The position numbers were made by a program, and so were the translations under genes. A stretch of DNA of 42,743 bases from Escherichia phage vB_EcoM-606R2, in the sequence record ON470579.1; one strand, written 5' to 3'. This document shows positions 31,116-41,286 of this stretch, piece after piece (position 1 is the first letter of the stretch; the number at the start of each line of letters is the position of its first letter). Below the pieces are notes generated by a model. The model was not told where the DNA came from. It was given only the letters and a program-made list of their open reading frames with translations, and searched no databases.

Positions 31116-31256
31116 ATTTAAGTCTCCACTTTCGTCTATAGCGCAAATTTATACGAAAACGGATTATTCAGCAATACGGCAATTCTATATCATCCTGGAT
31201 TAAAATATCCGATAACGCATAATCACCGTCCCTGTATACAACATGGATGAATCCAA
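31116..31256. promoter_or_regulatory. divergent cI/cro intergenic control region
   Basis: 141-bp AT-rich intergenic region between the divergent repressor genes. Individual operators were not confidently resolved. Confidence 0.4.
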
Positions 31257-31931
31257 ATGATTGATACTACCGATATCCTTTCTCAAAACATCAAGTACCT
31301 GATGGACAAAGCCAAGATAAGCTCGATAACTGAGCTGGCACGTCGGTTACAACTGAACCAACCAACGCTACACAGGCTGGTATCAGGAGAGGTGAAAGAT
31401 CCGAAATACGCAACGTTAAAGCAGATCGCCGACTACTTCCACGTGTCACCAATAGACCTGGCAGAAAGGAGCCTTCAAGAAATGGAGAAAGAGGACGCGA
31501 CGGGTATAAAAACGTATATTTCTCTTAGGTTTAATAAAGTACCTGTTTTGGGAAACACTCAGCTAGGCGTTGGAGGACTTTGGAGCGACACCCAATATTC
31601 AGTAGGTAGCAGTGATGGTTTCATATACTGGCCGACAAAGGATGAAGATGCATACGCCCTGAAATGTGTTGGTGATTCAATGATGCCTAGAATCAAAGAG
31701 GGTGAGTTCGTAATCGTCGAACCCAACCACGACTACACTCCTGGTGATGAAGTACTTGTGGTTACCCGGGACGGTGAGGTCATGGTTAAAACCTTCTTGT
31801 TCGAACGCGATGGCCTGTTCCATCTAATGTCTGTAAATGAAGATCATCCACCAGTCAGAGTACCACGCGAAAACATTGAAAAAATCCATTACGTGGCGGG
31901 GATCGCCAAATCCGCGCTACGCATGTACTAA
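31257..31931 (+). CDS. CI-like repressor (HTH plus LexA/S24 autopeptidase domain)
   Basis: An N-terminal HTH and a C-terminal S24 fold with the Ser nucleophile in CVGDSMMPRI and Lys in VMVKTF. Confidence 0.8.
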   Translation: MIDTTDILSQNIKYLMDKAKISSITELARRLQLNQPTLHRLVSGEVKDPKYATLKQIADYFHVSPIDLAERSLQEMEKEDATGIKTYISLRFNKVPVLGNTQLGVGGLWSDTQYSVGSSDGFIYWPTKDEDAYALKCVGDSMMPRIKEGEFVIVEPNHDYTPGDEVLVVTRDGEVMVKTFLFERDGLFHLMSVNEDHPPVRVPRENIEKIHYVAGIAKSALRMY

Positions 31932-32052
31932 CCTTTACAGTCTGATAACTTACTTCTGATCAAACCGCTCTCCACAAGGGCGGTTTTCTTATTTGCAAAA
32001 TAATTCATTTTCGTATTGACGCAAAATCCCATAACGCATATAAATACGATAC

Positions 32053-32073
32053 CGCATAATTAATGCGTTTTTT
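32053..32073 (+). terminator. putative terminator downstream of the cI-like gene
   Basis: AT-rich hairpin CGCAT-AATTA-ATGCG followed by TTTTTT. Confidence 0.4.
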
Positions 32074-32306
32074 AATACCAGCTCTTTAACAAACTGAACC
32101 GCGTGACAGGTAAGCCGCAGTACTCCTGGCAAAATGAAATGGCACCCGATGGGATCGAGGTAAGCGCCGAGTCCGTATGCGTACGGTAAGCGTAGAGGAC
32201 AACACCGCGACGAACTGATAAGTCACGCAAGTTGAAACGCCCCGACGATGGGGCGCTTAGTTCCTTTAACTCTGGGTGGCCGGAAGGGTACCCATGCTTA
32301 AAGAAA

Positions 32307-32876
32307 TTACTGGTTGTAAGGATCGTAATCCGTGATTGCCTTCCCCGGATTTTCATCTTCAGCAGGCAGTCTGGCCTCTAAAGCATTTCGGTTGAACAGA
32401 TAGGAAGCCCTACAGTGCGAACAAACCATATTAACGGCTCGCCCAAGGCCTGGCTTAATAACCAGACCTTCCGCTTGCAATATAGATTTTCTCTTTTGCT
32501 CGTAGCAATTGGGACAAATATAAACCGGAGATTGGTCAGTATCTGCAGAAAGCTTGCTGCGATAGACCAGAGTACCCCGCATAGGCTGGTAAAGTTCATA
32601 GCTCGCCGCTTCAGCGGCCCAGTTCTCTTGCTTTACTTTCTCATTTTCCAGTTCAACAATTTTCTCCTTAGCCGCAATCAGCAGCTCCTGAAGCGACATT
32701 TGCTGCATCTGAACATCCATTAGCTTATCGAGTAAGGTGTGCGTCTTCTCTTTAACTGCATAGTCGACAGTCAGATTCTGAATCTCTCTTGCTGCTCCAA
32801 CCGCGCCTTTAATTGCTCCTCCCACGCCGGATAACGATTCAGTTATCCGGGAAAGAATTCCTTTTTCTTCAGACAT
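32307..32876 (-). CDS. hypothetical coiled-coil protein with C-terminal CxxC...CxxC zinc ribbon
   Basis: 189-aa ORF antisense to the flanking operons, with a helical N-terminus and CPNC...CSHC. Confidence 0.55.
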   Translation of the reverse strand: MSEEKGILSRITESLSGVGGAIKGAVGAAREIQNLTVDYAVKEKTHTLLDKLMDVQMQQMSLQELLIAAKEKIVELENEKVKQENWAAEAASYELYQPMRGTLVYRSKLSADTDQSPVYICPNCYEQKRKSILQAEGLVIKPGLGRAVNMVCSHCRASYLFNRNALEARLPAEDENPGKAITDYDPYNQ

Positions 32877-32892
32877 ATCTAATCTCTCTCAA

Positions 32893-32937
32893 ACTGTAGG
32901 GGTGAAGAGATATTAGACGATTTCTCACTGTAGGGGT
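32893..32937. repeat. two direct copies of ACTGTAGGGGT spaced 34 bp apart (candidate operator pair)
   Basis: Read directly from the sequence; located 20-60 bp upstream of the minus-strand 189-aa gene start. Confidence 0.7.
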
Positions 32938-33006
32938 ACAAGGAGAACCACCTCGCCTGATGTGGTTAAAAGCAGGCACTCGATGATATCCATGTAATTG
33001 CTGTGT

Positions 33007-33033
33007 GTAGTCTTTGCCCGCCGCAAATGACGG
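33007..33033 (+). terminator. intrinsic terminator upstream of the rightward early operon
   Basis: GC stem GCCCG...CGGGC followed by TTTTTT on the plus strand. Confidence 0.55.
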
Positions 33034-33100
33034 GCTTTTTTATGTCTGAAAGCGCACTCGCAACAGCGCGCTCCCCGATATGAAAAAAGGAATACAACCG

Positions 33101-33250
33101 ATGAAACCTGAACACCTCTATCGACTGACGGGGCGCGATGTTCTCCGTTATCGCCGTAAAAACTTCGATTTGATGACCGGTCTGGCCGTTGCCACTGCGC
33201 TCGGTCTGATCATCACTTTCATTCTCCTTGTAGCGAGGACCACAGTATGA
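33101..33250 (+). CDS. small single-pass membrane protein (49 aa), not in the ORF track
   Basis: ATG at 33101 lies 11 nt after AAGGA. The product [49 protein letters not shown] has a C-terminal transmembrane helix, and its stop overlaps the next start (ATGA). Confidence 0.45.
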   Translation: MKPEHLYRLTGRDVLRYRRKNFDLMTGLAVATALGLIITFILLVARTTV

Positions 33251-34149
33251 GTTTAGAAACCAGTCTCGAACTTAATAATCAACTTCTGGCACAACATAAT
33301 GCGCTGCTTGAACGTCTTATCCGCACAATGGCATCAGGTATTGTTATGCATCCTGACACGATTTCACGAGTGCAGGAATGTCGGGATACAGCAACTGAAA
33401 CTGAAAATATGTCAGCGGCAATGACACTGGATGATCTGGAGTTCAGCGACGTTATCGCACTGGCTGGTTTCTACCCAGTAGCCACCCCTATCACAGAAGA
33501 CATGCTGCAACGTGCTGTTGCCTACCGTGATGCTGAAGGCGATAAACGAGTAGTTCAGATTGATGCTCTCGACAGCGCATTGCAGGGCGTCAAACGAGCC
33601 AGGGCGCTGCTTAAACCTGCTCTCCTGGACCTGTCCCGTAACATCCTTAAGTTCTGGGACGACCTGCCAACCATCGGCGAGCGACGTGCTTTTGCCGAGC
33701 AGCTACTTGATGCACCTGCGGATGGGCGTGATGAAGTTAAGCCGAAAAAGGCCAGTAACAAAGATGGAGAACGCACGGGGCCGTTTTACGTCAAAAATGT
33801 ATCCGGCACAGCAGCCAGTGAACTCCACACCTTACGCAAGTTGAACGAGATGCTGAAAAAAGGCCATATCGAGACCAACCGTGTTGAGTACCTTCAGCTG
33901 CAGGAAGAATTTGCACGCAGAGACACAGCAAATTCCAGCCAGAATAATGACGCCAAAGATGACCATACAATTGATTTCGCGGCACTACGCAAACAAGCTG
34001 AAGGGTTGATCCTCCAGTTAGCAAAAGGGGGTTACCGGGCAGAAGCTATTGCAATTCTGGAAAAACAGGGAGCCAGGAAACTTGGTGAAGTAACGGATGA
34101 AAATCTCGCTGAAGTAATCACCCTGGCTGAAAAAGCACTGGAGGGTTAA
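33247..34149 (+). CDS. hypothetical early protein
   Basis: 300-aa ORF, first large gene of the rightward operon. Confidence 0.6.
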
Positions 34150-34151
34150 TC

Positions 34152-35453
34152 ATGCCAGACGTTCATGCACAACTTTCTCCATCATCAGCGCATCGATGGA
34201 TGCGCTGCCCAGGAAGTCTGGCGCTGGAGGCCACACAACCGGATAAAGAAACAACTTTTGCAATCGAGGGCACTGCAGCGCACGCGCTTGCTGAAAAAGT
34301 TCTACGAAACAGGCAAAGCCACCCGGAACACTACGCCGGATGCAATGTTTCTATGTTTCTCGGCTCATACCCCCTTCGCGAAAATCCTGATGATACATCT
34401 GGCCCACAGGTGGATGATGAAATGGTCGAAGCCGTTGGCCGGTATGTTGATACGGTCTGGACTCTTGCACAGAATAATGAACTATTGGTTGAACAACGTG
34501 TTGATTTCTCACATATAACGGGTGTGGAAGAATCTTTCGGAACTGCCGACGGCATAATCATCGCTGGTAGCGAATTACAAATCCACGACCTGAAATATGG
34601 CAAAGGCGTCCGCATTGATGCAGAACAAAATGAGCAACTACAACTGTATGCTCTGGGTGCTCTCGAACAATTCAGCATGCTGTATGACTTTGAGACTGTA
34701 AGATTATTTATTCACCAGCCAAGGCTCAACCACGTTTCAGAATGGTCGTTAACCGTGCAGGAACTTCAGTCTTTCGGTAAACGAGCACAGGAGGCCGCAA
34801 CCAGTGCGATCCTTGTTCTCAATATTGCTGAATGCGAAGGCATTGAGACACTACCGCTGGAAAACTTCATACCTGGAGAAAAGCAGTGCCGCTTCTGTAA
34901 AGCAAAAGCTATTTGCACTGCCCAGAAAATGCAGCATTTACAAACAGCGGCCAGCGACTTTGAAGATCTGACAAAGCCTGTCAGCGAAATAATCACCAAT
35001 GCCAGCGCACGTGTACCTCTGTTAACCATTGAGCAGCTTGCGGAGATCTATAGCCAGGCCGACTTTATTGAGTCCTGGCTAAAGGCAGTACGGGACCGGG
35101 TTCACAATGAACTCAATGCCGGACATCCGGTACCGGGGTTTAAACTGGTAACAGGAAAACAAGGTAACCGGGCCTGGAGTGATGAAGAGGCAGCTCGCGC
35201 ACTTCTGAAGGACCAGTTCAGGTACAAAACTGAAGAAGTATTCGACTTTAAACTTATTAGTCCCACAAAAGCCGAAAAACTTATCAAAAAGGCCAGTCCA
35301 CGCCGTTGGTCAAAAGTCGAGGCACTGATAACACGAGCTGATGGTAAACCAACCGTCGTTCCCGAGTCAGACCCACGCCCCGCACTCAATATCAACCCTG
35401 TAAATGATTTCGACGACGTATCCGACGATACGCTAACCGCAGACCTCATCTGA
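34152..35453 (+). CDS. PD-(D/E)xK exonuclease, Cas4/RecB-like
   Basis: The N-terminal [15 protein letters not shown] signature and a C-terminal Cys cluster ([10 protein letters not shown]) match the Cas4-like phage nuclease family as recalled (DUF2800-type). Confidence 0.65.
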
Positions 35454-36069: not shown

Positions 36070-36699
36070 TCACTCAGGAATCTTAATCTTTCTCAATTCT
36101 TTATTTAGTTCACAGATCTTTTTCTTAGACGGGAAAGTATCATACATCCAAAAACCAACAGTCTCTAAAACTATTATCATAACCATATACACAAGATAAT
36201 TTAAAAGGCCTTCATTTTGCCCTATGGAAATAATGCAGATAATAGAAAAAAGGGTAAACAGCACAAAACACAGAAAGGAAAACAGACGACTAATAATAAA
36301 TAAAAAACCTGAAAAATCAACATTAATAAAAAACACTCCGTTATCTTTCTCTATATAATTCTGAAGCTTAATCAACTGATTTATATACTGTCTTTTTTCT
36401 AATCTATTGCAAATGTAAATAACATCTCTTCGGTTATAAGAGGATTGCAATTTCAGCGCATCACGAATAATTTTATCATTTATTCTTTTTTCTATGGCTT
36501 TCTTATCCTCCTTATCCAGATAACGTTCATACTTAATTAAATATAAAATTAACTTCTTGACATATTTAGGCTCTTTATACTTATAATTAAAAATGATCTT
36601 TCTTATCCAGACTCCCATAACAATCAAACATGAAAAAATATATCCAGCTATTTTCTCCAGATGCTCTGTATGGTCAATCAAGTATTGGATCATATGCAT
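36070..36699 (-). CDS. AT-rich integral membrane protein, antisense insertion in the replication module
   Basis: 209-aa ORF with one N-terminal and two or three C-terminal hydrophobic helices and a Lys/Tyr/Ile-rich composition; its GC content is markedly lower than the flanking genes. Confidence 0.6.
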   Translation of the reverse strand: MHMIQYLIDHTEHLEKIAGYIFSCLIVMGVWIRKIIFNYKYKEPKYVKKLILYLIKYERYLDKEDKKAIEKRINDKIIRDALKLQSSYNRRDVIYICNRLEKRQYINQLIKLQNYIEKDNGVFFINVDFSGFLFIISRLFSFLCFVLFTLFSIICIISIGQNEGLLNYLVYMVMIIVLETVGFWMYDTFPSKKKICELNKELRKIKIPE

Positions 36700-40856: not shown

Positions 40857-41286
40857 TCCTGAATACACAACATTCCTCAAACATTTTGGCACTTTCAAAG
40901 TTGCACAACTAGACCAGAAAGAAGTATCAGAAACTGAGTATCTGGCATCTGAGATTAAAGATATCAAATCATTATTGATATCTCTTAGGGCAACAGCAAC
41001 GACAAAATCCAGATTTTTCGACTCACCGAAAAATTACTCGCAGCAGGAAATTGACAACTCTGTAGATATTATTAAAAATGGAGTTGCCAGTTATACTATA
41101 AGGAGTGAAGGATTTAGTATATCAAAATCAGCACTAGAAAAGTTACGCCAAAGACTACACAACGCAGGATTTCAAGTCGAGCAAATAGTATTGACAGGAA
41201 AAGAAGTAATTATTCATCTGTCATCACCTTTAATAAATGAAGAAGAAAATATTTTTAAAGATGCAATAGTAACAGCACTATTATAA
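40777..41286 (+). CDS. C-terminal portion of the frameshift-split gene (no ATG; open from 40777)
   Basis: A 170-codon open frame with protein-like composition. The track starts it at a TTG at 40975, but it reads continuously from the repeat tract. Confidence 0.5.
   Translation, partial: DTNQSINLFKERLASKIKETYLKSVTDPEYTTFLKHFGTFKVAQLDQKEVSETEYLASEIKDIKSLLISLRATATTKSRFFDSPKNYSQQEIDNSVDIIKNGVASYTIRSEGFSISKSALEKLRQRLHNAGFQVEQIVLTGKEVIIHLSSPLINEEENIFKDAIVTALL
40782..40797 (+). repeat. tetranucleotide repeat (CAAT)4 at the frame-switch point
   Basis: Read directly from the sequence. The +1 frame opens at 40777 and the zero frame closes at 40856. Confidence 0.9.

What the first reader, a model, noticed from the sequence alone, without database searches (positions are those of the whole stretch)
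32307..33040. Antisense zinc-ribbon coiled-coil gene with a direct-repeat control region and a plus-strand terminator upstream of the early operon
The 189-aa gene runs opposite to both flanking operons in the slot beside the repressor, where lambdoid phages often carry exclusion genes. Its upstream region has two copies of ACTGTAGGGGT 34 bp apart. A GC hairpin with a T-run on the plus strand lies just before the early operon, which suggests either a short plus-strand RNA or an attenuator controlling early transcription.
Basis: partly seen in the sequence, partly recalled or inferred. Interest (0 to 1): 0.45.

Follow-up and report, generated by a model that had tools for sequence, protein, structure and literature searches.

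The report
Rip1 defence gene with sas-type antisense control
The antisense gene is a homologue of the recently described phage-defence pore protein Rip1, it sits behind the promoter and antisense-RNA module that phage P22 uses to control its exclusion gene sieB, and the hairpin next to it copies the 3' end of the host small RNA RprA.

Summary
All three observations are real. The window is Escherichia phage vB_EcoM-611R5, which is also a prophage in about 50 complete E. coli genomes.

- **Gene.** The 189-aa gene (32307-32876, minus strand) is a full-length homologue of HK446 Rip1, a prophage pore-forming anti-phage protein (PDB 9OOX, E 8.5e-48, about 52% identity).
- **Repeats.** The two ACTGTAGGGGT copies lie in a ~105-bp module that is 81-87% identical to the region upstream of sieB in lambda and P22. 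That region holds the annotated P_sieB promoter and, on the plus strand, the published sas antisense RNA. Both repeats lie inside sas. In IMG/VR the module fronts SieB-type genes in 95 loci and Rip1-type genes in 27.
- **Hairpin.** The plus-strand hairpin with its T-run is weak (-8 kcal/mol). It is preceded by 24 nt identical to E. coli RprA, so the element looks like processed RprA. This 18-mer plus a variable terminator heads early operons in many temperate phages.
- **Cassette.** Relatives lacking rip1 and the sas-like module show that window 32256-32985 is an inserted cassette. It lies between a conserved boxA leader and the RprA-like element.

The likely mechanism is inferred, not shown. 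Rip1 would be made in the lysogen and shut off by early plus-strand transcription and the sas-like RNA. The protein and the module are known kinds; the RprA-like element appears undescribed.

The parts
31257..31931 (+). CI/LexA-type prophage repressor (context)
   Evidence: Pfam Peptidase_S24 at 2.6e-18 plus an HTH domain. Annotated as 'repressor protein' in ON470588.
32016..32044 (+). PL-like early promoter: TTGACG (32016-32021), 17-nt spacer, TATAAA (32039-32044)
   Evidence: Read from the sequence; coordinates. The 10-mer ATAACGCATA overlapping it occurs only here and in the cro-cI intergenic region of the whole window. The tool scan does not list it because the -10 lacks T6. Promoter function is inferred.
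32053..32067 (.). Palindrome CGCAT-N5-ATGCG at the predicted transcript start; operator-like
   Evidence: The operator role is inferred.
32076..32255 (+). Conserved early leader. It begins with boxA GCTCTTTAACAA (32081-32092), carries GGTAAGC three times (32109, 32159, 32185) and ends in the hairpin CGCCCCGACGATGGGGCG (32238-32255).
   Evidence: Near-invariant in relatives whose promoter and operator regions are entirely different; coordinates. No Rfam match and no thermodynamic signal (z = +0.49).
32256..32985 (.). Inserted rip1 plus sas-like cassette
   Evidence: Relatives L157, L172, L214 and L290 join the leader hairpin to the RprA-like element after only 26-50 nt. Other relatives carry small plus-strand ORFs in the same place.
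32307..32876 (-). Rip1-family anti-phage pore protein gene, 189 aa
32910..32915 (-). -10 hexamer TAATAT of the P_sieB-type promoter; predicted mRNA start near 32903
   Evidence: Aligns with TAAACT at the end of the annotated P22 'P sieB' promoter. The only invariant positions in the spacer between the repeats across 49 versions are T1, A2 and T6 of this hexamer. The start site is inferred.
32893..32903 (+). Repeat copy 1 (ACTGTAGGGGT); on the minus strand it corresponds to about +1 to +11 of the rip1 mRNA
32927..32937 (+). Repeat copy 2; it overlaps the -35 area of the minus-strand promoter and forms the top of a plus-strand hairpin with a GGGG loop
32872..32985 (+). sas-like antisense RNA region, antisense to the rip1 start codon and 5' UTR
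   Evidence: 86% identical over 86 nt to P22. The homologous P22 stretch is the published 127-nt 'P22A-sas' RNA (PMC13397905 Table 2). The transcript ends in this phage are not known.
32922..32947 (+). Hairpin 2 of the sas-like RNA: UUCUC..UGUA-GGGG-UACA..GAGAA
   Evidence: Predicted in all 38 distinct versions. Wobble changes keep the pairs on the plus strand only.
32946..32977 (+). Two interleaved helices, AACCAC/GTGGTT and GCCTG/CAGGC, capable of forming a pseudoknot
   Evidence: Both-sided changes such as GCCGGG/CCCGGC in L024 and L083. The pseudoknot itself is inferred.
32996..33019 (+). 24 nt identical to E. coli K-12 rprA, the single-stranded part of processed RprA
   Evidence: Rfam RprA RF00034 scores 50.2 bits, below the gathering score of 70 (E 4.7e-5). 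Alignment to the rprA locus. BLAST hits the annotated rprA gene in 5421 genomes.
33016..33041 (+). Terminator-like hairpin, GCCCG and CGGGC arms, plus a T6 run
   Evidence: -8.0 kcal/mol. 74 of 87 distinct phage versions of the element have a hairpin (median -13.7 kcal/mol) followed by a T-run at this place.
33046..33055 (+). Conserved box CTGAAAGCGC just after the T-run
   Evidence: GAAAGCGC lies downstream in 34 of 113 distinct versions of the element. Function unknown.
33101..34149 (+). First early genes: a small membrane-type ORF (phrog_11981) and a 300-aa protein (phrog_6784)
   Evidence: 45 of 52 loci found through the 300-aa protein keep the RprA-like 18-mer about 250 nt upstream.

Best explanation
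Window 32256-32985 is a mobile 'exclusion cassette' inserted into the leader of the phage's early plus-strand operon.

**What the cassette holds.** It carries a Rip1-family gene on the minus strand. From published work on Rip1, this is a single-protein abortive-infection pore that is switched on by ring oligomers of an infecting phage, either small terminase or portal. In front of the gene is the same promoter and antisense-RNA module that phages P22 and lambda carry in front of sieB.

**Inferred mechanism.**
1. In the lysogen the repressor shuts the PL-like promoter at 32016-32044.
2. The minus-strand P_sieB-type promoter (-10 at 32915-32910) then makes rip1 mRNA, which starts inside repeat copy 1.
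3. When the phage itself grows lytically, plus-strand early transcription runs antisense through the whole of rip1.
4. That transcription yields a structured sas-like RNA covering the rip1 ribosome-binding site and start codon. The RNA blocks new Rip1 synthesis, so the phage is not killed by its own defence, as sas does for SieB in P22.

**The repeats.** They are not regulator sites. They are parts of this bifunctional DNA: the promoter -35 area and the mRNA 5' end on one strand, and two hairpins of the antisense RNA on the other.

**The hairpin with its T-run.** It belongs to the backbone, not to the cassette. It is the terminator of a widespread element that heads early operons and copies the last ~47 nt of host RprA. 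It probably ends the sas-like and leader transcript, giving it an sRNA-type 3' end. It probably also acts as a leaky, tL1-like stop in front of the early genes.
For: **Identity of the protein (shown).**
- establish the homology.
- Rip1 function is taken from Patel et al. 2026, as summarised in PMC13434031 and PMC12908700.
- The N-terminal Gly/Ala-rich helix has the highest hydrophobic moment in the protein.

**Homology of the module (shown).**
- Lambda, HK446 and P22 all match it.
- P22 annotates P_sieB at the aligned place.
- The P22 sas RNA sequence equals the aligned plus strand.
- sas function and its length of 105 nt are given.

**Promoter.** The invariant positions T1, A2 and T6 match a -10 hexamer.

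**RNA on the plus strand.** Hairpin predictions and wobble or compensatory changes favour the plus strand.

**One module, two effectors.** It fronts SieB-type genes in 95 loci, Rip1-type genes in 27 and another gene in 1.

**Cassette borders.**

**Early promoter, operator-like repeats and boxA.**

**RprA-like element.**. RprAproc is the last 47 nt of RprA and is active on its own (PMC9262595).

**Precedent.** Lambda PreS at tL2a is a terminator-derived, Hfq-bound sRNA in an early-left operon.
Against: - No transcript data exist for this phage, so the start and end of any plus-strand RNA are unknown.
- I found no recognisable dedicated promoter for a sas-like RNA on the plus strand, here or in P22 (my reading of the sequence; scan). 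It would have to come from early read-through plus processing, or from a weak promoter.
- The P22 logic relies on two in-frame products, SieB and Esc. I saw no Shine-Dalgarno-preceded internal in-frame start in rip1, so the outcome of antisense control here would be plain repression, not a switch.
- The P_sieB-type promoter has no good -35.
- The hairpin is weak (-8 kcal/mol, 10-nt loop), and the 175-nt region folds only slightly better than shuffles (z = -1.5).
- Covariation is limited because the module is so conserved.
Confidence: 0.7

Rival explanations
1. The two ACTGTAGGGGT copies are DNA operator sites for a phage or host regulator that controls the antisense gene.
For: The repeats are direct, exactly conserved and at fixed 34-bp spacing (about three helical turns). 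They bracket the -10, lying at about -34 to -24 and +1 to +11. That geometry would suit a repressor. The promoter also lacks a good -35, which is typical of activator-dependent promoters.
Against: The module is the same in phages with unrelated repressors and immunity regions (lambda, P22, HK446 and this phage), so a phage-specific regulator is unlikely. Both copies lie inside an RNA that has been detected in P22. The flanks of each copy change in a way that keeps plus-strand hairpins. No candidate protein is known.
Confidence: 0.12
2. The hairpin with its T-run is simply a tL1-type terminator or attenuator for the early operon. It would be overcome by boxA/Nus-dependent or leader-RNA-dependent antitermination. 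Its likeness to RprA would then have no trans-acting meaning.
For: It sits between the leader or cargo slot and the first early gene, as tL1 follows N in lambda. A perfect boxA and a near-invariant leader lie upstream. One relative (L292) has an Arg-rich, N-like peptide gene in the slot. No promoter is seen between the hairpin and the early genes.
Against: A terminator does not need an exactly conserved 18-24-nt single-stranded stretch. That stretch is kept where the adjacent 300-aa protein has drifted to 65-76% identity, and where the terminator stem itself is freely replaced. This is the pattern of an sRNA seed. The two roles do not exclude each other.
Confidence: 0.3
3. The sas-like region here is only the promoter of rip1. 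In this non-lambdoid backbone no functional antisense RNA is made, and its RNA features are inherited baggage.
For: There is no dedicated plus-strand promoter, the target lacks the SieB/Esc arrangement, and the thermodynamic signal is modest.
Against: The part of the module upstream of the promoter (32946-32977) is useless for a minus-strand promoter, yet it is conserved and keeps its pairings across lineages, including Rip1-type ones. The early promoter necessarily drives transcription across it.
Confidence: 0.12

Closest known systems
Rip1 (ring interacting pore 1) of phage HK446; PDB 9OOX; Patel et al., Nature 2026
   Same: Full-length homologue at about 52% identity. It has the same N-terminal helices and the same C-terminal four-Cys domain. 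It occupies the same place (the sieB slot, antisense to the early-left operon) behind the same upstream module.
   Different: It is 25 residues longer at the C-terminus, with a tail ending TDYDPY that two other relatives share. It sits in a phage with its own DNA polymerase and primase rather than a classical lambdoid. Its trigger and activity are untested.
P22 sieB / esc / sas system (Ranade and Poteete 1993) and lambda sieB
   Same: The same promoter and antisense-RNA DNA module (81-87% identity, both repeats, the -10 and the downstream helices). It has the same orientation relative to the repressor and the early-left operon.
   Different: The effector is Rip1, which is unrelated to SieB (phrog_1244 against phrog_6399). 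I saw no Esc-like internal in-frame start. The module is followed by an intrinsic-terminator-like element instead of ral.
RprA sRNA (Rfam RF00034), in particular its processed 47-nt form RprAproc
   Same: 24 nt identical to the single-stranded part of RprAproc. A GCCC...GGGC terminator and a U-run follow at the same distance.
   Different: It falls below the Rfam gathering score (50 against 70 bits). The 5' two-thirds of RprA, including the rpoS-pairing region and the Rcs-dependent promoter, are absent from this window. It is phage-borne and lies at the head of an operon.
Lambda PreS (LPR1) at terminator tL2a
   Same: A GC-rich hairpin plus poly-U terminator inside the early-left operon that doubles as the 3' end of an Hfq-bound phage sRNA.
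   Different: No sequence similarity, and a different place in the operon. Expression and Hfq binding are not shown here.
Lambda nutL-N-tL1 arrangement
   Same: The order is early promoter with operators, then boxA, then a cargo slot with an antisense exclusion gene, then a terminator, then the early genes.
   Different: No N gene and no recognisable boxB in this window. The leader is a different, highly conserved 180-nt RNA of unknown role.

Membership tests
Rip1 (ring interacting pore) anti-phage proteins | Sequence and fold homology to a characterised Rip1 | tested here: met
Rip1 (ring interacting pore) anti-phage proteins | N-terminal amphipathic helix plus a C-terminal ring-binding half | tested here: met
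   AF2 helices at 7-34 and 39-90, then a beta/Cys4 domain. The highest hydrophobic moment falls in residues 7-30. This rests on prediction only.
Rip1 (ring interacting pore) anti-phage proteins | Encoded in a prophage | tested here: met
   The window is identical to phage vB_EcoM-611R5 and to chromosomal prophages in 49 complete E. coli genomes.
Rip1 (ring interacting pore) anti-phage proteins | Activated by oligomeric small terminase or portal; forms membrane pores; protects the population | not testable with these tools
   Needs plaque assays, escaper mapping and liposome or cryo-EM work.
P22-type P_sieB / sas antisense control module | Sequence homology to the sas RNA gene and the P_sieB promoter | tested here: met
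   86% over 86 nt to P22 and 81% over 105 nt to lambda. The annotated promoter and the published RNA align to it.
P22-type P_sieB / sas antisense control module | The plus-strand RNA overlaps the ribosome-binding site and start codon of the divergent exclusion gene | tested here: met
   The start codon (32874-32876) lies 16 nt from repeat 1, as in HK446. The P22 sas 5' end lies at the sieB start codon.
P22-type P_sieB / sas antisense control module | The target gene gives two in-frame products (SieB and Esc), so that the antisense RNA switches translation | tested here: not met
   The target is a Rip1 homologue. On my reading of the sequence, none of the internal in-frame Met codons is preceded by a Shine-Dalgarno sequence.
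P22-type P_sieB / sas antisense control module | A discrete ~105-nt RNA made during lytic growth and needed to avoid self-killing | not testable with these tools
   Needs Northern blot or RNA-seq and mutants.
RprA sRNA (RF00034) | Reaches the Rfam gathering score | tested here: not met
   50.2 bits against a gathering score of 70. The relative L037 scores 52.1 bits.
RprA sRNA (RF00034) | 3' domain: conserved single strand plus terminator (RprAproc) | tested here: met
   24 of 24 nt identical, and the terminator base and U-run are kept.
RprA sRNA (RF00034) | 5' and central domain that pairs with rpoS and csgD; Rcs-dependent promoter | tested here: not met
   The 5' part of the Rfam alignment is a low-confidence fit to sas-like sequence. 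Some other phage copies do keep an AUCCCCUGA(G/A)U motif (11 of 113).
Intrinsic (Rho-independent) terminator | GC-rich stem, short loop and a following U-run | tested here: inconclusive
   The stem has 5 G-C pairs, the loop is 10 nt, the U-run is U6 and the energy is -8.0 kcal/mol. The consensus scan does not call it. Relatives have stronger stems at the same place.
Lambda-type N/nut antitermination | boxA, a boxB hairpin and an N gene | tested here: inconclusive
   boxA GCTCTTTAACAA is present once, about 30 nt after the predicted start. No N gene and no boxB were recognised.

The most novel reading that the evidence does not exclude
The 18-24-nt RprA-identical stretch plus terminator is a phage-encoded mimic of processed RprA. 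It would be made from the early or sas-like transcript, bind Hfq, and act in trans on the targets or partners of host RprAproc. It is carried at the head of the early operon by many temperate enterobacterial phages. In this phage it would form the 3' end of a chimeric RNA that both silences the phage's own Rip1 defence in cis and reprograms the host in trans.
Probability: 0.3. Interest if true: 0.75.

Novelty: new variant of a known kind. Interest (0 to 1): 0.55.

Why it matters
- **A portable control cassette.** The old P22 sieB/sas device appears to be a movable unit that phages place in front of at least two unrelated abortive-infection effectors, SieB and Rip1. This suggests how a Rip1-carrying prophage avoids killing itself on induction, when its own terminase and portal rings appear.
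- **A predictive marker.** The module could serve as a sequence marker for finding further exclusion genes.
- **A possible RprA mimic.** An undescribed, widespread phage element is identical to the active 3' part of a core stress sRNA. If it is expressed, it would be a new case of phage mimicry of host riboregulation, and a handle on the still unclear role of processed RprA.

Tried and rejected
- **Rfam at gathering thresholds.** Nothing in the whole window.
- **Pfam and PADLOC.** Pfam gave only sub-threshold zinc-ribbon noise for the protein. PADLOC 2023 gave nothing, because both predate Rip1.
- **Word-indexed protein search.** Only 16 relatives. The profile search was needed to see the size of the family.
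- **Known phage sRNAs.** I checked whether the plus-strand element is one already described. Lambda PreS/LPR1 lies at tL2a between ea10 and ral. The Pas sRNAs lie in the late and lysis regions. HnrS lies in the late genes. AgvB and AsxR lie 3' of PR'. None matches.
- **Literature searches.** Searches for RprA-like phage RNAs and for the motif sequences found only RprA itself and the P22 sas table.
- **Papers not held.** Ranade and Poteete 1993, Patel et al. 2026 and Papenfort et al. 2015 are not in the library, so I used secondary sources.
- **Species-representative genomes.** A combined sas plus RprA pattern found nothing there. The collection holds one genome per species.
- **Complement of the RprA-like seed.** A 12-nt complement at 41150 lies inside an ORF and is about what chance gives.
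- **Third repeat copy.** The inverted near-copy at 32406-32416 lies in the codons of the second CxxC motif and is at chance level.
- **Leader as a stable structure.** z = +0.49.
- **Terminator annotations.** The lambda record J02459 carries no terminator features, so I could not place tL1. NC_002371 uses other coordinates than the sas table.
Full report
**Source and layout.** The window is identical to Escherichia phage vB_EcoM-611R5 (ON470588). The 1.4-kb region around the finding is also found at 100% identity in chromosomal prophages: 49 of 5426 complete E. coli genomes cover at least 80% of it. The local order on the plus strand is as follows:
- a primase-like gene and a cro-like HTH gene on the minus strand;
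- an S24/HTH repressor gene at 31257-31931 on the plus strand, with its terminator at 31962-31986;
- a 375-bp non-coding stretch;
- the 189-aa gene at 32307-32876 on the minus strand;
- a 224-bp gap;
- plus-strand early genes: a small ORF, a 300-aa protein, a PD-(D/E)XK-type exonuclease, an SSB-like protein and a DNA polymerase.

**Observation.** All three features are present as described.
- The 11-mer ACTGTAGGGGT lies at 32893 and 32927. With one mismatch allowed there are 3 hits against 0.33 expected, and no shuffle reaches 3.
- The hairpin is GCCCG/CGGGC (33016-33035) followed by T6. The consensus scan did not list it because its loop is 10 nt. It folds at -8.0 kcal/mol.

**The protein is a Rip1 homologue.**
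- Pfam and PADLOC gave nothing useful. PHROGs placed the protein in phrog_1244 together with gp37 of phage HK446.
- Sequence search of the PDB gives E 8.5e-48 over residues 3-166.
- Four Cys and several aromatic residues are invariant. The family is large, with 3471 cluster representatives at E <= 1e-3.
- According to the review PMC13434031 and the meeting report PMC12908700, Rip1 (Patel et al., Nature 2026) is a prophage-encoded single-protein defence. Its N-terminal amphipathic helix forms a pore once twelve copies assemble around a ring of phage small terminase, or around portal in Pseudomonas phages.
- The Gly/Ala-rich N-terminus here has the highest hydrophobic moment in the protein.

**The 'direct-repeat control region' is the P_sieB/sas module.**
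- Window 32874-32979 is 81% identical to lambda 34395-34499, which lies just upstream of sieB. It is 86% identical to P22, and 73% identical to HK446 over a longer stretch that includes the first ~77 codons.
- In the P22-pbi record the aligned place is annotated 'P sieB' (TGTACCCCTACAGCGAGAAATCGGATAAACT).
- The RNA-seq-defined 127-nt 'P22A-sas' RNA of PMC13397905 (Table 2) is exactly the plus strand of this module. It runs from the sieB start codon through both CUGUAGGGGU repeats to beyond GUGGUUAAAAGACAGGCAC.
- sas is the 105-nt antisense RNA by which superinfecting or growing P22 stops SieB synthesis and escapes its own exclusion system (Ranade and Poteete 1993, as cited in PMC12197685 and PMC7067206).

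**Comparative anatomy of the module.**
- The gene directly behind the module is SieB-type in 95 loci, Rip1-type in 27 and something else in 1.
- In 49 distinct versions the only invariant positions between the repeats correspond to T1, A2 and T6 of a minus-strand -10 hexamer, TAATAT at 32915-32910 in the window. That places the mRNA start near 32903. Repeat 1 is then about +1 to +11 of the mRNA, and repeat 2 lies over the -35 area.
- On the plus strand, repeat 2 forms UUCUCxCUGUA-GGGG-UACAxGAGAA (32922-32947). After it come two interleaved helices, AACCAC/GUGGUU and GCCUG/CAGGC.
- Variant sequences keep these pairs through wobble or double changes, and the wobbles work only on the plus strand. 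For L039, L064 and L090 the plus strand folds at -21, -22 and -19 kcal/mol, against -17, -14 and -14 for the minus strand.
- The flanks of repeat 1 also differ between lineages in ways that keep a hairpin presenting UGUAGGG (my reading).
- The repeats are therefore best read as parts of a bifunctional promoter and antisense-RNA element, not as operator sites.

**The cassette and its setting.**
- Relatives found through the RprA-like motif or through the 300-aa early protein show three states of the same slot:
  - empty, with the leader hairpin CGCCCCGACGATGGGGCG followed after 26-50 nt by the RprA-like element (L157, L172, L214, L290);
  - filled by small plus-strand ORFs, one of which is Arg-rich and N-like (L292);
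  - filled by rip1 plus the sas-like module.

  The cassette is therefore window ~32256-32985.
- Upstream lies a good sigma-70 promoter: TTGACG, a 17-nt spacer, then TATAAA, at 32016-32044. It overlaps ATAACGCATA-type repeats that occur elsewhere only in the cro-cI intergenic region, and a CGCAT-N5-ATGCG palindrome sits at the predicted start.
- The leader from 32076 begins with a perfect boxA (GCTCTTTAACAA). It is almost invariant in relatives whose promoter and operator regions are unrelated.
- Early plus-strand transcription must therefore cross rip1 in antisense. This is the lambda and P22 PL/sieB geometry.

**The hairpin is an RprA-like element.**
- A permissive Rfam scan hit RprA (RF00034) at 32932-33045: 50.2 bits against a gathering score of 70, E 4.7e-5. 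Only the 3' ~50 nt are convincingly aligned.
- Alignment with the K-12 rprA locus shows 24 identical nt, AATTGCTGTGTGTAGTCTTTGCCC. A different terminator top follows, and the U-run is kept. BLAST confirms the match to the annotated rprA gene.
- This is the segment known as processed RprA, the last 47 nt. It coexists with full-length RprA and regulates some targets on its own (PMC9262595; the RNase E cleavage is described in PMC6202311).
- The 18-mer ATTGCTGTGTGTAGTCTT is present in at least 120 viral contigs, in about 90-110 distinct contexts. In 74 of 87 of these it is followed by a hairpin of unrelated sequence (median -13.7 kcal/mol) and a T-run.
- An anchor that does not depend on the motif is the set of loci encoding relatives of the 300-aa protein. 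Of 52 such loci, 45 keep the 18-mer with 0-1 mismatch about 250 nt upstream, including loci where the protein is only 65-76% identical.
- Twelve of 113 distinct contexts have a sas repeat upstream. About 3% of complete E. coli genomes (179 of 5426) carry the phage-type copy.
- I found no description of this element in the held literature.

**Mechanism.**
- *Shown:* the homologies, positions, conservation patterns and cassette borders.
- *Inferred:*
  - Rip1 is expressed from the P_sieB-type promoter while the repressor keeps the early promoter off.
  - On derepression, convergent early transcription and the sas-like RNA block Rip1 synthesis. This protects the phage from a defence that would otherwise sense its own terminase or portal rings.
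  - The RprA-like terminator gives the plus-strand RNA an sRNA-type 3' end and partly stops transcription before the early genes.
- *Weak points:*
  - There are no transcript data.
  - No dedicated plus-strand promoter was recognised.
  - I saw no Esc-like second product.
  - The promoter has a poor -35.
  - The hairpin is weak.
  - The whole region folds only slightly better than shuffles (z = -1.5).

**Verdict.** The finding is real and largely explained by two known systems joined in a new way, Rip1 and the P22-type sieB/sas control module. It also contains a widespread and apparently undescribed RprA-like element, which is the most novel part and remains functionally untested.

Noticed in passing
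window 32076-32255: A 180-nt early leader begins with a perfect boxA (GCTCTTTAACAA, 32081-32092) and contains GGTAAGC three times. It is almost invariant in relatives with unrelated immunity regions. It has no Rfam match, no coding potential that survives comparison, and no thermodynamic signal (z = +0.49). It is a candidate cis-acting antitermination or processing RNA.
   Followed up: partly
window 32016-32067 and 31212-31230: A PL-like promoter (TTGACG, 17-nt spacer, TATAAA) overlaps ATAACGCATA-type repeats and a CGCAT-N5-ATGCG palindrome. The same 10-mer occurs only in the cro-cI intergenic region, so these are probably the repressor's operators.
   Followed up: partly
L248, L249, L260, L291, L292 (slot equivalent to window 32256-32985): In relatives the same slot holds small plus-strand ORFs of 36-69 aa instead of rip1. 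One is a Cys-rich, zinc-ribbon-like peptide. One is an Arg-rich peptide (MRYIKIDKGPNRAQRRKSRHD...) that resembles the RNA-binding motif of N antiterminators.
   Followed up: partly
window 33046-33055 and many loci (for example L136, L029, L202): A conserved box (C)TGAAAGCGC lies a few bases after the T-run of the RprA-like element in 34 of 113 distinct versions, often inside a small hairpin. Conservation beyond the terminator suggests read-through RNA or a DNA site.
   Followed up: partly
Erwinia phages Ea9-2, Frozen, Rexella, Gutmeister; phages LLS, phiES15, Eeyore, Flotzy: Lytic N4-like Erwinia phages and several temperate phages also carry stretches 85-100% identical to the RprA-like element. 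In the Erwinia phages the match lies under annotated hypothetical protein genes.
   Followed up: no
E. coli plasmids: 29 of the 5609 matches to the RprA-like element in complete E. coli genomes lie on plasmids, possibly phage-plasmids.
   Followed up: no
L136, L139, L196, L208, L216 and others: Some phage copies of the element extend the likeness to RprA upstream. They carry AUCCCCUGA(G/A)U, part of RprA's central pairing region, directly after the stop codon of an upstream ORF. That is the look of a 3'-UTR-derived sRNA.
   Followed up: partly
window 32406-32416 (minus strand): A third, inverted near-copy of the repeat (ACTGTAGGGCT) lies inside rip1, in the codons for the second CxxC motif. 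With its flank it is 13 of 14 nt complementary to 32922-32935. It is at chance level and probably meaningless.
   Followed up: yes
window 36070-36699 (minus strand) and about 38870 onward (plus strand): A second antisense gene encodes a 209-aa protein that looks membrane-embedded from its sequence. It lies inside the early operon. A 'TIR-like domain-containing protein' gene follows the DNA polymerase gene in the ON470588 annotation. Both look like further defence or moron cargo.
   Followed up: no
window 32238-32255: The leader hairpin CGCCCCGACGATGGGGCG is followed on the minus strand by TTTCAACTT. It is the only terminator-like structure downstream of rip1, so a backbone element may double as the rip1 terminator.
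   Followed up: no
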